Virus record (IMG/VR): IMGVR_UViG_3300032236_001024
Span: 138,142-202,141 of that record
Reading direction: 5' to 3' (one strand)
DNA: 64,000 nucleotides
From: a virus
Taxonomy: Duplodnaviria; Caudoviricetes
The notes below the pieces were generated by a model. That model was not told where the DNA came from, searched no databases, and saw only the letters and a list, made by a program, of their open reading frames with translations. The stretch's first letter is position 1. Each line of letters begins with the position of its first letter. Position numbers and translations under genes: made by a program. Below are positions 1-33,314 of the stretch, piece after piece.

Positions 1-232
1 AATCATAATCATGTATTTTAATATTGATCTTACGTTTTGAATTGATTTTATTAATAGTACGGTTTAGAACAACTTGCCAGTTTTCACAACACCATGTGAC
101 AATTTTATCAAGGGTTGTGTAATCTTTTTCATTAATATCCCAATAATTATCACCATACTTTTTTTCAAAGTACCAACGCTCAAATACATAAGCTGACCAA
201 TCAGTTTTATACGGTCCCATATAAACTTTCAT
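1..232 (-). CDS. hypothetical phage protein (partial, runs off window edge)
   Basis: Manually read ORF MKVYMGPYKTDWSAYVFERWYFEKKYG..., ATG overlaps the upstream stop (TAATG). Confidence 0.55.
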   Translation of the reverse strand, partial: MKVYMGPYKTDWSAYVFERWYFEKKYGDNYWDINEKDYTTLDKIVTWCCENWQVVLNRTINKINSKRKINIKIHDYD

Positions 233-15997: not shown

Positions 15998-16075
15998 TGG
16001 AGGGGAAGATGGGAGTCGAACCCACCTAAAAAGGTTTTGCAGACCTTGCCATAACCGCTCTGGACTCACTTCCCC
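15998..16075 (-). tRNA. tRNA-Cys(GCA)
   Basis: AAGGT-CT-GCA-AA-ACCTT, U73, CCA. Confidence 0.9.
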
Positions 16076-16085
16076 GTATAAATGA

Positions 16086-16158
16086 TGGTGGAGTAAGTGG
16101 GACTCGAACCCACCTCAGATTCCTTGCAAAGGATTCCTGCTTGCCCTGAGCCTACCCC
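16086..16158 (-). tRNA. atypical tRNA-Ala(UGC), shortened D region
   Basis: G3-U70 pair, loop TT-TGC-AA, intact T-arm, CCA; 73 nt with the 8/9 connector apparently missing. Confidence 0.7.
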
Positions 16159-16167
16159 AATTCTTAT

Positions 16168-17598
16168 TTAGTAATCGTAACGCTCATTCATGATAGTCTT
16201 GAGCATGATTGCTTCTGGAGTGAAATCATCCATATCAGCTGCAAGAACTGACTTGACGATTGCAGGAGAGAAACCAGAAACAAGAGCAGCACCACGAGTA
16301 TCATACTTCACAGGTACGTTGTCGTTAGCATTAAGGTTCCAGAAGATGATATTAGGCACCTTATAACCAGCTTCAGTATACTTGCGAGCAATCATTTCCA
16401 TTGCAGAATCATCATGGTGAGTGCACTGATCAAACTGCATATCAGAAAGGATCAACAAAGCTTCAGGCATTTCCTCTTGAGGAACATTACCATTCTTTGC
16501 AACAACAAGGATATTATCCAAAGCCATATGAAGATTGGTGTTCATTTCCCACTTCGAAGTCACCATCTGCTTGATCTTGTCGAGGATGTTGCCACGAAGA
16601 TTAAGCAACTGAGGCTGTGAAGAAAACGTTAGGAACGTATCTTTGAACTTACCTTTGTTCTTGTCAGCAAGATACAGACCCAGTGAGACTGCAACTTCAA
16701 GACAAGTTACAGTAGACTTCGACTGCCAACCACCAGCTTTTGTAGTCATTGATCCAGAAACGTCAACTAGAGGAAGGATGTTAGCATCGCCAATATAGTT
16801 AGGCAAAGCTTCCCACTGAGCAAGGATATGATTCAAATTATGCTGATCATAATGATCATAATGATTAATCATACCCTTCAGCACATCATAAGGATACACT
16901 GCACCAGCGTTAACCTTGACTTCCTTCTTGACTTCAGGATCAGTCGAAACGAGAGCAGCAGTCCATTCCTTATACTTTTCAGTATGACGAGAGAACGCCT
17001 TCTTATAACGACCAGAAGCAACAGAAGGAACATGGTTGAAGTTGATGTTATCCCAATCATTGGCGCACATCTGAGTTTCAACAACCTTAGTCAGTTCAAC
17101 CAGACGTTTACGATAGAACTTAGGAGTCCAACCAAGGTGGTTACGAAGCTTCACAGCTACTTCACCTTGACGAGGCATCCACTTAGCACAGAGACCATTT
17201 GAATCCTCAAGGGCATAACGAATTTGTTCAAACGCATAGTATTCAGCACGAGTGCCAACAAGAACCAACAGATCATCCCAGCGTCCAAGTTCAGGAACCT
17301 TACGCATCATAATCATACAATAGTCCAAATCTTCCTTAGCGAGATCAACAAGGATATCACGAAAAATCTTGCGTTCTCCTGCACCTCCACGAACGTCACG
17401 AGCCCAAAGTGCAACACGAGTTGCAAGATCAAGGTTCTCAACACGAGCAGCAGTCCATGAAGGAATTACATCCTTGCCACGCATAGCACCAATCTTAAAG
17501 AAAAGATCAGTAACTGCGTTGGCAGTGGACTTACGAGCCTTCATACCATTCTGGGTACGAACCTCTTGATTGATTACAGCATTCACGAAGGTATTCAT
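16168..17598 (-). CDS. Ro60/TROVE-like RNA-binding protein with vWA domain (DUF2828-type)
   Basis: LWARDVRGGAGER, GRWDDL, AKWMPR, VDVSGSM (MIDAS), LILSDMQFD, IFWNL, LVSGFSP. Confidence 0.85.
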   Translation of the reverse strand: MNTFVNAVINQEVRTQNGMKARKSTANAVTDLFFKIGAMRGKDVIPSWTAARVENLDLATRVALWARDVRGGAGERKIFRDILVDLAKEDLDYCMIMMRKVPELGRWDDLLVLVGTRAEYYAFEQIRYALEDSNGLCAKWMPRQGEVAVKLRNHLGWTPKFYRKRLVELTKVVETQMCANDWDNINFNHVPSVASGRYKKAFSRHTEKYKEWTAALVSTDPEVKKEVKVNAGAVYPYDVLKGMINHYDHYDQHNLNHILAQWEALPNYIGDANILPLVDVSGSMTTKAGGWQSKSTVTCLEVAVSLGLYLADKNKGKFKDTFLTFSSQPQLLNLRGNILDKIKQMVTSKWEMNTNLHMALDNILVVAKNGNVPQEEMPEALLILSDMQFDQCTHHDDSAMEMIARKYTEAGYKVPNIIFWNLNANDNVPVKYDTRGAALVSGFSPAIVKSVLAADMDDFTPEAIMLKTIMNERYDY

Positions 17599-31683: not shown

Positions 31684-31760
31684 TGGTTGGGACAGATGGA
31701 CTCAAACCATCGACCTCACGATTATCAGTCGTACGCTCTAATCAACTGAGCTATGCCCCA
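31684..31760 (-). tRNA. tRNA-Ile(GAU)
   Basis: TACGA-CT-GAT-AA-TCGTG, CCA. Confidence 0.93.
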
Positions 31761-32149
31761 ATTAAACCTGAATATTTGTGTCTTTCTCTATTACCTTTAC
31801 CCTTGTTTAAGGCTTTCCATGTCTCAGTAAGAGAATGACAATTCGGACACAAAACTTTTAAATTTTCTTTTTTACAGTTCGAACAATCACCATCGATATG
31901 ATCGATTTCTAATGGAGAATTTCCTGTTTTTGGATTAATTTTATTCCAGCCACATTCTACACACTGAAAATTTGATTGTTCTAACATATATTTTCTTACA
32001 GCTGTTTTAATTCTATATCCAACTTTGTATCCATGATCTGATCCTTTTAACCAATTTTCTACAACATCACGAGATTTTTTATCTCCTTGACATTTATTAC
32101 TACAATATTTTCCAGTTTTTATTTCTGTTTTACAATTTAAGCAGTGCAT
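31751..32149 (-). CDS. HNH endonuclease (free-standing, in tRNA cluster)
   Basis: CxxC/CSNKC Zn motifs, LEIDHIDGDCSNCKKENLKVLCPNCH; own TATAAATA at 32181-32188. Confidence 0.88.
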   Translation of the reverse strand: MHCLNCKTEIKTGKYCSNKCQGDKKSRDVVENWLKGSDHGYKVGYRIKTAVRKYMLEQSNFQCVECGWNKINPKTGNSPLEIDHIDGDCSNCKKENLKVLCPNCHSLTETWKALNKGKGNRERHKYSGLIGA

Positions 32150-32191
32150 CTAAACCTCCGAGTTTACAGCCTTCTGCTTTTATTTATAAAA

Positions 32192-32267
32192 TGGTAGACC
32201 CTCCGGGGCTCGAACCCGGGACAATTCGATTAAAAGTCGAGTACTCTACCTACTGAGCTAAGGGTCC
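32192..32267 (-). tRNA. tRNA-Lys(UUU)
   Basis: TCGA-CT-TTT-AA-TCGA, CCA. Confidence 0.95.
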
Positions 32268-32274
32268 AAACTTA

Positions 32275-32461
32275 TTAGGAGTGATGTTATGTTATGGATA
32301 TGGATAGACCGCCATATCGTTCGCTTTACTCTGCAATCTTATTTCAGGTCATGACTCCTATTTCGATTGCAACTCAGTTTATGCCGTGCCTGCAGGACAG
32401 AGAGCTTTAGGGACTGTGCGCTGCCCAGGAACACTGGGATTTTCCATAACACCACACCTAA
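32275..32461 (-). ncRNA. candidate 187-nt structured RNA
   Basis: 5' TTAGGTGTGGTGTTATG pairs with 3' CATAACATCACTCCTAA (16 of 17 positions); internal CCCAG/CTGGG, TGCAATC/GATTGCA, ATATGG/CCATAT helices. Confidence 0.55.
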
Positions 32462-32464
32462 CAA

Positions 32465-32580
32465 GTTGTTTCTACAAAGAAGTACCGTTCTGTATAGGAT
32501 TTGCACCTATCTTTCACCCGACTCCGCAGATGTGTCCTAACTTATAGACGAACAAAACGATACTCCTTTGAAGAAACAAC
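32465..32580 (-). ncRNA. tRNA-like cloverleaf on an extended ~29-bp stem
   Basis: GTTGTTTCT.CAAAGGAGTATCGTTTTGT pairs with ACAGAACGGTACTTCTTTG.AGAAACAAC; inside D-like GTCT/GGAC, CATCT/GGGTG arm, ATAGG-TGCAAAT-CCTAT T-like arm. Confidence 0.65.
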
Positions 32581-32696
32581 CGTTACACCCACGATGGGGT
32601 AAGAATCCCTACTCAGAGAGTACGAATCCCCGATGTTTCTCGTTCCAACAATGTCAAACAGCGTATGATGTACAATACCCCACTCCCATATCCGTG

Positions 32697-33314
32697 TCAA
32701 CTACTATTTTTAGGATATGGCATTATTTTATATTTCAAACTTTGTAACAACTCTTTCTTTCTTTTCCCCTTAGCATTCAAAAACACATACCTGTGTTTTC
32801 TTGGTCTAGGTTTGAGAGAGAACTTGTCGCCATAAAGTTCTTTCAATTCCTGTGATGAGTATTTATCTGCAATTGTCTGACAATGCCTATCAATACCATC
32901 AACAACCCAATTCGTTCTCTTAGCAGATAGTCCTGTATAATACCAGTTTGTTGCCTGATACACAATACCTAAATGCCCTTGTTCTATCTCAGCATATGAT
33001 ACAACAATCTCCTTACCACATTGTTTGATTGTATTCCCTATCAAGAAACTTTCACCATTCCTTGGTACTGAATCACAAACCCACAACCTAGTAAGTTCTA
33101 CTACATTGTTTACATTATCATCACCAGCAATTCCTCTCCTTAGAGGCGCAGATGATGGTGTACCATATACTACAACACCTTTGCATTCATCATCCAGAAA
33201 CAATCCAAATGCAACACTACAAGGTGCTTTTCTATGAAGATAATGCTTCTCAACAATTATCTTCATAGCAGTGTGATAATCAATCCTCTTGATACAGTAG
33301 TTCTCAAGAGCCAT
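32697..33314 (-). CDS. Mom-like (GNAT-fold) DNA modification protein
   Basis: HYLHR, GVVVYG, ELTRLWV, RNGESFLIG, VSYAE, GIVYQATNW.YTG. Confidence 0.78.
   Translation of the reverse strand: MALENYCIKRIDYHTAMKIIVEKHYLHRKAPCSVAFGLFLDDECKGVVVYGTPSSAPLRRGIAGDDNVNNVVELTRLWVCDSVPRNGESFLIGNTIKQCGKEIVVSYAEIEQGHLGIVYQATNWYYTGLSAKRTNWVVDGIDRHCQTIADKYSSQELKELYGDKFSLKPRPRKHRYVFLNAKGKRKKELLQSLKYKIMPYPKNSS

What the first reader, a model, noticed from the sequence alone, without database searches (positions are those of the whole stretch)
32465..32580. tRNA-like cloverleaf on a ~29-bp extended acceptor helix with a non-standard anticodon loop
Seen: D-like, anticodon-like (6-8 nt loop, no U-turn consensus) and T-like (TGCAAAT) arms enclosed by a long near-perfect helix; no CCA. 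It cannot be a decoding tRNA, yet the long stem is intact, which argues against simple decay. It is a second tRNA mimic in a genome encoding a Ro60-like protein, and could be an elbow mimic for RNase P, T-box-like or defence sensors (inference).
Basis: partly seen in the sequence, partly recalled or inferred. Interest (0 to 1): 0.7.

Follow-up and report, generated by a model that had tools for sequence, protein, structure and literature searches.

The report
Clamped tRNA-Glu mimic in phage leader RNA
The cloverleaf is real: it is a tRNA-Glu copy without an anticodon or a free end, clamped on the swappable tip of a long hairpin, inside an uncatalogued ~390-base structured RNA that heads the tRNA gene array of a group of uncultured T4-like lake phages.

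Summary
A ~32-bp helix encloses D-like, anticodon-like (6-nt loop) and T-like arms (-50.2 kcal/mol, z -7.65).

The tRNA-like core (32558-32487) descends from tRNA-Glu. Twelve distinct relatives keep the acceptor, D and T stems: 90.9% of cells are paired, and 11 pairs show compensatory changes. All have a shortened or altered anticodon arm and a clamped end without CCA, except L188, which keeps a 7-nt anticodon loop and ARAGORN calls tRNA-Tyr.

The hairpin is not free-standing. It is the exchangeable tip of a conserved ~390-nt leader RNA: sigma-70-like promoter, 5' domain, hairpin, covarying 195-nt 3' domain, then a tRNA 3-6 nt downstream. I found about 70 metagenomic loci with 19 unrelated tip types. 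The same tRNA-Glu module also sits in other clamps in other phage tRNA arrays.

No Rfam family matches (YrlA, GOLLD and ROOL were tested). The Ro60-like protein is absent from two of three near-complete genomes that carry the leader, so the Ro60/Y-RNA link is not supported.

My best reading, which is inferred: an RNA scaffold, possibly self-associating through self-complementary loops, displays a non-chargeable tRNA-Glu body as bait or as a handle for a tRNA-binding factor. The closest analogue is GOLLD with its embedded tRNAs.

The scan had already noted this stretch and the neighbouring 185-nt RNA on this same genome, without follow-up. It had not noted them on other DNA.

The parts
32672..32700 (-). 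Sigma-70-like promoter: TTGACA, 17-nt spacer, TATTGT. It overlaps the end of the Mom-like gene.
   Evidence: 10 of 12 matches. 38 of 53 distinct upstream contexts in relatives have TTGACN-16..18-TANNNT at this place. Transcription itself is inferred.
32585..32664 (-). 5' domain of the leader RNA, 'long form'. It starts with the conserved ACGCUGUUUGACAUUGUUGG and holds seg2 GAAACAUC (32639-32632) and a ~70-nt inserted three-way element. Relatives of the 'short form' have a 9-bp hairpin capped by GAAA instead.
32461..32584 (-). The long hairpin, which is the finding: a ~32-bp helix plus a three-armed tip.
   Evidence: -50.2 kcal/mol, z -7.65
32570..32581 (-). Conserved 5' strand of the hairpin base (seg3, GGUUGUUUCUUC). 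It can also pair with seg2.
   Evidence: It covaries with both partners in L170, L097 and L104.
32465..32475 (-). Conserved 3' strand of the hairpin base (seg4, GUAGAAACAAC).
32476..32569 (-). Exchangeable cassette (94 nt here). It is replaced by unrelated sequence of 24-116 nt in relatives.
   Evidence: 19 types; 41 distinct cassettes, 30 distinct basal stems, 91% paired
32487..32558 (-). tRNA-Glu-derived pseudo-tRNA. Acceptor 32558-32552 / 32493-32487. D arm 32549-32534. Anticodon-like arm 32532-32515 (loop CGGAGU). T arm 32510-32494 (loop UGCAAAU).
32271..32464 (-). Conserved 3' domain of the leader. A 19-bp closing helix encloses five further helices.
   Evidence: 38 distinct sequences, 49 pairs, 14 with compensatory changes
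32390..32395 (-). Self-complementary loop word CUGCAG. Relatives have UAGCUA, CAGCUG or CCUAGG at this place.
   Evidence: 38 of 38 distinct sequences carry a palindrome here
32348..32355 (-). Second self-complementary loop word GUCAUGAC. Three relatives have GUCGCGAC; 9 of 38 sequences have no palindrome at this place.
32192..32267 (-). tRNA-Lys(UUU), the first tRNA after the leader, 3 nt downstream. Its 5' end is the likely RNase P site that would free the leader.
   Evidence: In 38 of 42 distinct contexts a tRNA starts 3-6 nt after the leader. RNase P release is inferred.

Best explanation
The element is a pseudo-tRNA derived from tRNA-Glu. It keeps the 7-bp acceptor helix, the tRNA-Glu D arm and a T arm. 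Its anticodon arm has been rebuilt (6 bp, 6-nt loop). Its acceptor helix continues without a break into a long helix, so it has no free end to charge and no anticodon to read.

This clamped mimic is the exchangeable tip of one hairpin in a ~390-nt non-coding leader RNA. The leader runs promoter, 5' domain, hairpin, then a 195-nt conserved 3' domain, and opens the phage's tRNA array.

Shown here: the fold, the tRNA-Glu ancestry, the RNA family, the cassette exchange, and the conservation of the mimic in several different clamps.

Inferred:
- The leader is made by host RNA polymerase together with the tRNAs.
- It is freed when RNase P cuts at the tRNA that starts 3 nt downstream.
- The scaffold may pair with copies of itself through two self-complementary loops.
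- It holds out a tRNA-Glu-shaped body (elbow, D helix, acceptor helix) that a tRNA-binding factor can bind but cannot charge, decode or cut in an anticodon loop. That makes it bait, a sponge or a recruiting handle. Candidate partners are GluRS, a tRNA-maturation enzyme, or a host defence protein that senses tRNA bodies.
For: - Fold.
- tRNA-Glu origin. Among the window's 19 tRNAs the best match is tRNA-Glu. The 3' half is close to the phage's own tRNA-Glu, with a compensated change in the T stem (AUCGG/CCGAU to AUAGG/CCUAU). The L144 relative aligns along the whole of its own tRNA-Glu except for a shortened anticodon arm.
- tRNA model scores. The L144 copy scores 39.7 bits on Rfam tRNA, L099 scores 26.2 and L170 scores 25.
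- Covariation. In 12 distinct sequences 90.9% of cells are paired, 11 pairs change on both sides, and the T stem is 100% paired with 3 covarying pairs. No shuffle (0 of 500) and no slid control comes near.
- Selection on the core. The core is 64/66 and 63/67 identical where the flanking clamp is 64-84% identical.
- Other clamps. The module occurs in at least four different clamps, always inside phage tRNA arrays and on the tRNA strand.
- Leader family. There are about 70 loci. The 3' domain has 14 of 49 pairs with compensatory changes. A tRNA starts 3-6 nt downstream in 38 of 42 contexts, and a promoter is present in 38 of 53.
- Cassette exchange. There are 19 tip types, the same type occurs on different 5' domains, and a co-occurring variant was seen in the best DNA run.
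- Self-complementary loops. These words change only into other self-complementary words, including the adjacent-base change CAUG to CGCG.
- Precedent. GOLLD has a conserved 3' domain, a variable 5' domain, sits at tRNA arrays, carries embedded tRNAs and assembles through kissing loops (10.1101/2024.12.08.627333; PMC12990946).
Against: - No transcript ends or abundance are known for this phage. Only RNA-library contigs of a relative touch the region, and they could be DNA carry-over.
- No partner is identified.
- The scaffold does not need a tRNA-like tip. Some relatives carry only a 24-nt hairpin there, and most carry tips with no tRNA likeness.
- The window's copy is the most degenerate of the mimics. 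It has no GG in the D loop, G in place of U55, no side hairpin, and no Rfam tRNA hit at E<=10.
- Part of the apparent T-stem covariation could come from gene conversion with nearby tRNA-Glu genes.
- 15 of 53 upstream contexts lack the promoter motif.
- Self-association rests on few independent changes.
Confidence: 0.5

Rival explanations
1. Neutral passenger. The hairpin tip is a structurally permissive spot, and the pseudo-tRNA is debris captured from the neighbouring tRNA array by recombination. Only the strut and the scaffold matter.
For: There are 19 unrelated tip types, including a bare 24-nt hairpin. The window's copy is the most degenerate. GOLLD and ROOL have a disordered, non-conserved linker (10.1101/2024.12.08.627333).
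Against: The stems stay paired with compensatory changes in 12 sequences. The core is more conserved than its clamp. The same module recurs in four different clamps in different phages. The loop words are conserved: CGGAG in the window and L180, UCGCGU in four others.
Confidence: 0.15
2. Processing signal. The embedded tRNA shape is there to be cut, by RNase P or RNase Z at the mimic or by RNase III in the ~32-bp helix. Cutting would split the leader or release a small RNA, after which seg3 refolds onto seg2.
For: The helix is long enough for RNase III. Relatives with a three-way junction leave unpaired bases 5' of a 7-bp acceptor stem (L144). A conserved alternative partner for seg3 exists. 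tRNA-like 3'-end signals are known elsewhere (own knowledge: mascRNA).
Against: In the window the acceptor helix is fully clamped, with no leader or trailer, which is a poor RNase P substrate (own knowledge). Non-tRNA tips sit on the same helix. No read ends are available.
Confidence: 0.12
3. Conformational switch. The seg2/seg3 and seg3/seg4 pairings are mutually exclusive. The tip, with or without a bound factor, decides which forms, and this tunes folding or read-through into the tRNA array.
For: Both pairings follow changes in seg3 (L170, L097). The arrangement persists in L182, which has a different 3' part.
Against: There is no terminator or ribosome-binding site to control. L104 lacks seg2. 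RNAalifold of the long form leaves seg2 unpaired.
Confidence: 0.1
4. Y-RNA-type partner of the phage's Ro60-like (DUF2828/DUF7788) protein, as the first reader leaned to.
For: The shape is Y-RNA-like: a long stem plus a tRNA-like domain with a 6-nt 'anticodon' loop, as described for D. radiodurans Yrn1 (PMC4201824). The genome encodes a DUF2828/DUF7788 protein that earlier notes call Ro60-like. L182 also carries that gene, 6.5 kb away.
Against: The gene is 15 kb away, not within 4 kb. The protein is absent from 2 of 3 near-complete genomes with the leader. There is no TROVE match, no YrlA model match and no GNCGAA motif. The helix sequence is unlike the handle of the Y-like RNAs next to that gene.
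Confidence: 0.08

Closest known systems
GOLLD RNA (Rfam RF02032) and ROOL RNA (RF03087): large ornate phage/prophage RNAs at tRNA arrays
   Same: Phage-borne and sited in or beside tRNA arrays. GOLLD has a conserved 3' domain and a variable 5' domain. Both have a non-conserved region that in GOLLD sometimes holds a tRNA (for example tRNA-Phe in Mycolicibacterium GOLLD). They assemble through kissing loops (10.1101/2024.12.08.627333; PMC12990946). The leader here has the same lay-out and has self-complementary loops.
   Different: No match to either covariance model at E<=10. It is about half the size (~390 nt). The embedded element is a clamped, anticodon-less mimic at a hairpin tip, not a tRNA in a single-stranded linker. 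Multimer formation is untested here.
YrlA / bacterial Y RNAs with Ro60 (Rsr) (Rfam RF02553; Chen et al. 2014, PMC4201824)
   Same: A long stem carries a tRNA-like domain with D and T arms and no working anticodon. It is non-chargeable. Phage examples are known.
   Different: It is not next to a Ro60 gene. It has no GNCGAA motif and no model match. The scaffold occurs in genomes without the Ro60-like protein. It is part of a much larger RNA.
Phage T4 species 1 RNA (rnaC), the small stable RNA of the T4 tRNA cluster
   Same: A non-decoding stable RNA in the tRNA gene cluster of a T4-type phage, on the tRNA strand, with a canonical T arm. Its function is still unknown (the last point is own knowledge).
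   Different: It sits at the 3' end of the T4 cluster, not at the head. It is 139 nt, free-standing, and its ends are not clamped by a long helix. A blastn search of the window's Mom-to-tRNA-Lys spacer (32150-32750) against GenBank phages found only tRNA.
Phage-encoded tRNAs that counter tRNA-targeting defences
   Same: Phage tRNA arrays as counter-measures to host attack on tRNAs. The mimic could be a decoy in the same conflict (inference; own knowledge of the PARIS, PrrC and retron Eco7 work).
   Different: Those are functional, decodable tRNAs with altered anticodon loops. This element has no anticodon and no free end, so it cannot replace a cleaved tRNA.

Membership tests
tRNA (RF00005) | Score at or above the Rfam gathering threshold (29 bits), or an ARAGORN call | tested here: not met
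   No hit at E<=10 in 32270-32800 and no ARAGORN call. The relative L144 reaches 39.7 bits; L099 reaches 26.2 and L170 reaches 25.
tRNA (RF00005) | Free acceptor end with discriminator base and CCA (encoded or addable) | tested here: not met
   The acceptor helix continues directly into the long helix on both strands.
tRNA (RF00005) | Anticodon arm of 5 bp with a 7-nt loop and U33 | tested here: not met
   6-bp stem and 6-nt loop CGGAGU. Eight of the twelve relatives have 0-4 bp there.
tRNA (RF00005) | 7-bp acceptor, 4-bp D stem and 5-bp T stem with a 7-nt T loop | tested here: met
   The T loop is UGCAAAU (G at position 55) and the D loop lacks GG.
YrlA / Y RNA (RF02553) | Encoded within about 4 kb of a Ro60 (TROVE) gene, on the same strand | tested here: not met
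   No TROVE match in the genome. The DUF2828/DUF7788 gene is at 16168-17598, 15 kb away. It is absent from 2 of 3 near-complete genomes with the leader.
YrlA / Y RNA (RF02553) | GNCGAAN0-1G motif near the 5' end (Rsr-binding region) and a match to the covariance model | tested here: not met
   The motif is absent from 32590-32455 (-) by reading. There is no RF02553 hit at this place at E<=10. The criteria come from PMC4201824.
YrlA / Y RNA (RF02553) | tRNA-like domain with T and D arms on a stem formed by the two ends | tested here: met
YrlA / Y RNA (RF02553) | Binds Ro60 | not testable with these tools
   Needs protein-RNA binding assays.
GOLLD (RF02032) | Match to the covariance model | tested here: not met
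   0 matches at E<=10 in the whole 202-kb genome. None in L144/L099 or 12 other loci.
GOLLD (RF02032) | Phage RNA at tRNA arrays with a conserved 3' domain, a variable 5' domain and an occasional embedded tRNA | tested here: met
   This is a likeness of lay-out only.
GOLLD (RF02032) | Homo-oligomeric assembly | not testable with these tools
   Only self-complementary loops that covary were seen.
ROOL (RF03087) | Match to the covariance model | tested here: not met
   0 matches at E<=10. The control genomes also gave none, so this is weak. It is also absent.

The most novel reading that the evidence does not exclude
The leader is a new class of self-assembling phage RNA, a small functional counterpart of GOLLD and ROOL. 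Its rigid arm displays interchangeable RNA baits. The anticodon-less tRNA-Glu body is one bait in a modular, RNA-only host-takeover or anti-defence platform, and the rapid cassette turnover records an arms race with host factors that read tRNA shapes.
Probability: 0.2. Interest if true: 0.9.

Novelty: new variant of a known kind. Interest (0 to 1): 0.72.

Why it matters
Large ornate phage RNAs at tRNA arrays (GOLLD, ROOL) and tRNA-mimicking Y RNAs are known, but what they do is still open. This family offers three things.

First, it is a compact case of about 390 nt, with a natural series of 19 tip variants on one scaffold. That amounts to a ready-made structure-function experiment.

Second, it shows that one particular mimic, a tRNA-Glu body without anticodon or free end, is kept under selection and moved between different RNA clamps in different phages. 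This points to a specific, still unknown tRNA-Glu-body reader in the phage-host conflict.

Third, it links two stretches that the scan had listed separately (the 'second tRNA mimic' and the 'orphan 185-nt RNA') into one transcript-level unit. It also separates that unit from the phage's Ro60-like system.

Tried and rejected
- ARAGORN and Rfam, at gathering threshold and at E<=10, give nothing at the site.
- blastn of the spacer against 50,697 GenBank phages matched only tRNA-Lys. No cultured phage carries the leader at that sensitivity.
- An exact 23-mer of the window's T arm is absent from IMG/VR.
- Synteny through the upstream Mom-like gene failed. Of 80 loci only L001 and L002 share the spacer, and the others have no tRNA array there.
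- Ro60 checks: the Pfam TROVE model finds nothing in the genome, and a sequence search of the DUF2828 protein against PDB chains finds nothing. I did not fold it; earlier notes call it Ro60-like, and I did not retest that.
- I misremembered RF01998 as GOLLD. It is a group II intron piece, so one search is irrelevant. The search was repeated with RF02032.
- Sequencing runs: only Logan contigs were available. Two RNA-library runs hold contigs of a relative that cover the 3' domain and run on into an L095-type tip. Contigs cannot show ends, strand or level, DNA may be present in such libraries, and the uncovered parts prove nothing.
- Scan of bacterial and archaeal genomes: one true hit, on a 5-kb contig binned with a betaproteobacterial MAG. 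It is probably a phage contig and only a weak host hint. Three other hits are chance.
- About 16 of the 50 metagenome hits to the 18-mer anchor were unrelated DNA and were dropped.
- Coding reading: the short ORFs across the region are broken by cassette length differences that are not multiples of three.
- Second copy: there is none in the 202-kb genome.
- The other tip types show no Rfam likeness.
- I did not use structure or complex prediction, because no protein partner is in view.

Full report
**Setting.** The window is the last 64 kb of a 202-kb IMG/VR virus record with terminal repeats. It is a T4-type phage: Gp23 capsid protein, UvsW, UvsX and a split family-B polymerase. Its capsid protein is 69% identical to that of Stenotrophomonas phage DLP_6, and 61% identical to Methylophilales phage Melnitz and to cyanophages. 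All 18 tRNA genes lie on the minus strand. The finding lies in the 430-nt gap between a Mom-like gene (33314-32697) and tRNA-Lys(UUU) (32267-32192).

**The observation.** On the minus strand, 32585-32460 folds to -50.2 kcal/mol (shuffles -25.5 +/- 3.2, z -7.65). The plus strand reaches only -32.2. The fold is a ~32-bp helix with one U-U mismatch. It encloses three arms:
- a 4-bp stem with an 8-nt loop;
- a 6-bp stem with the 6-nt loop CGGAGU;
- a 5-bp stem with the 7-nt loop UGCAAAU.

There is no CCA and no free end. ARAGORN and Rfam see nothing here, even at E<=10.

**It is the tip of a bigger RNA.** Two contigs whose Mom protein is 96% identical (L001, L002) share the whole spacer. The exception is the inside of this hairpin, where unrelated sequence of 109 and 82 nt replaces it. 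An invariant 18-mer just 3' of the hairpin retrieved 37 related IMG/VR contigs and about 34 related metagenome contigs. A second pattern added more divergent members.

All members share one plan:
- A TTGACN-17-TANNNT promoter, present in 38 of 53 distinct upstream contexts. In the window it is TTGACA-17-TATTGT at 32700-32672.
- A conserved 5' start.
- A 5' domain that is either a 9-bp hairpin capped by GAAA or, as in the window, the same helix with a ~70-nt insert.
- The hairpin, with conserved base strands GGUUGUUUCUUC and GWAGAAACAAC.
- A 195-nt 3' domain.
- A tRNA that starts 3-6 nt later in 38 of 42 distinct contexts: Lys-UUU 20, Pro 16, Ile 3.

The genome holds a single copy.

**The 3' domain is a structured RNA.** In 38 distinct sequences RNAalifold finds 49 pairs, 14 of them with compensatory changes. 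These include the 19-bp closing helix, for example CUURUU/AAYAAG and CUGAUU/AAUCAG. An earlier first-stage note had listed this stretch as an orphan 185-nt RNA. It belongs to the same unit as the finding.

Two hairpin loops carry self-complementary words:
- At the first, all 38 sequences have CUGCAG, UAGCUA, CAGCUG or, in an alternative module, CCUAGG.
- At the second, 24 have GUCAUGAC or GUCGCGAC.

The changes U..A to A..U around a two-base centre, and CAUG to CGCG, cannot be pairs within one hairpin. Pairing between two copies is the simplest reading. The number of independent events is small, and nothing was measured.

**The tip is a cassette.** I count 41 distinct cassettes of 19 unrelated types, 24 to 116 nt long. 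Thirty different basal stems are 91% paired over their first 11 positions, so the long helix is always rebuilt. The same type occurs on different 5' domains (for example L104 and L105). The best DNA run holds a second variant with another tip (table 5). Eight types contain a T-arm-like hairpin. Only the tRNA-Glu type is recognised by Rfam.

**The window's tip is a tRNA-Glu derivative.** Among the window's tRNAs, the core 32558-32487 aligns best with tRNA-Glu. Its 3' half resembles the phage's own tRNA-Glu, with a compensated T-stem change. Relatives found through the scaffold (L144, L170, L092/L099, L095/L103) show the same body. L144 aligns along its own tRNA-Glu except for a shortened anticodon arm, and it scores 39.7 bits on the Rfam tRNA model.

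A pattern built on the D arm then found the module outside this leader family:
- on the same base helix but with a different 3' part (L182, L185);
- on an unrelated long helix (L184/L187);
- on a short stem (L180/L186, L188);
- unclamped (L183).

All of these lie inside tRNA arrays of 7-23 genes and on the tRNA strand.

On 12 distinct sequences my cloverleaf gives 90.9% paired cells, against 32-57% when the partners are slid. Eleven of 22 pairs change on both sides, and 0 of 500 shuffles reach any measure. The D stem never varies apart from one G-C to G-U change; this is partly by search design, but it also holds in the six sequences found through the scaffold. The T stem is always paired, with three covarying pairs. 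The 6-bp anticodon-like stem of the window covaries with that of L180, and both share the loop CGGAG. The core is 97% and 94% identical in two pairs whose clamps are 72-78% and 64-84% identical. From my own knowledge of E. coli tRNA-Glu identity, U11-A24, U13-G22, G1-C72 and U2-A71 are GluRS determinants outside the anticodon. The window's mimic has all four. This is a lead, not a test.

**Relation to the Ro60-like system.** The 476-aa protein at 16168-17598 matches DUF2828 and DUF7788. TROVE is not found in the genome. Earlier notes on this genome call the protein a structural relative of Ro60, with three Y-like RNAs upstream. I read those RNAs, and their shared handle is unlike the helix here. 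The protein is present in two of five large contigs that carry the leader, and in only one of the three that are at least 93% complete. The YrlA criteria (within 4 kb of Ro60, GNCGAA motif, model match; PMC4201824) are not met. The Ro60 link is therefore not supported, though it is not excluded for the mimic alone.

**What it is like.** GOLLD has a conserved 3' domain, a variable 5' domain and a non-conserved region that sometimes holds a tRNA. It sits at phage tRNA arrays and assembles through kissing loops; ROOL is similar in setting (10.1101/2024.12.08.627333; PMC12990946). The lay-out here is the same, but neither model matches. T4's species 1 RNA is another non-decoding RNA with a canonical T arm in a T4-type tRNA cluster.

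**Mechanism.** Shown: the structure, ancestry, family, modularity and conservation. Inferred:
- early co-transcription with the tRNAs;
- release by RNase P at the downstream tRNA;
- possible self-association;
- display of a tRNA-Glu body that can be bound but not charged, decoded or cut in an anticodon loop.

The rivals are a neutral passenger, a processing signal, a switch built on the two exclusive pairings of seg3, and a Y RNA. Expression evidence is weak: RNA-library contigs of a relative span the 3' domain and an L095-type tip.

**Verdict.** The finding is a real and conserved RNA element. It is less in another, because there is no tie to Ro60. I rate it a new variant of a known kind, with its function open.

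Noticed in passing
window 16084-16153 (-) and 16001-16075 (-): Directly after the stop of the DUF2828/DUF7788 gene lies an acceptor-like stem, a long hairpin and a canonical T arm ending in ACCA. Next to it is a tRNA that Rfam scores at 38.9 bits but ARAGORN misses (anticodon loop CUGCAAA, Cys-like).
   Followed up: no
window 32639-32632, 32581-32570, 32475-32465 (-): The middle strand of the hairpin base can pair either with an upstream copy or with the downstream copy of GAAACAAC-like sequence. Both pairings follow changes in relatives (L170, L097), and the trio persists in L182, which has a different 3' part.
   Followed up: partly
L188:2115-2188 (+): A gene with the tRNA-Glu-type body of the mimic but a 7-nt loop with GUA. 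ARAGORN calls it tRNA-Tyr. It is either a hybrid tRNA or another mimic.
   Followed up: no
L095:1095-1172 (-); L084:3717-3796 (+): ARAGORN calls a tRNA-SeC(TCA), and Rfam gives a sub-threshold tRNA-Sec hit (32.5 bits), inside the tRNA arrays of related phages. This may be a UGA-reading tRNA.
   Followed up: no
L082, L115, L116, L112 cassettes (type 2): This tip type starts with a canonical T arm (ACGG-UUCGAUU-CCGU). It also holds a hairpin whose stem covaries around a CUAG/UCUAGA centre; in L082 it reads as the 14-nt palindrome CCAGTCTAGACTGG.
   Followed up: partly
L123, L126, L127, L132, L145, L164, L166, L176: An unrelated conserved non-coding block in other metagenome contigs ends in the same 18-mer as the leader anchor. 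It is probably a different element.
   Followed up: no
window 31751-32149 (-): A 132-aa ORF with a weak HNH_3 match sits between tRNA-Lys and tRNA-Ile, like the free-standing endonuclease segB in the T4 tRNA cluster. It could drive local gene conversion and cassette exchange.
   Followed up: no
L175 (CAIJNI010000023.1): A complete leader plus tRNA-Lys lies on a 5-kb contig binned into an uncultured betaproteobacterial MAG. This is a weak hint to the host group, or a binning artefact.
   Followed up: no
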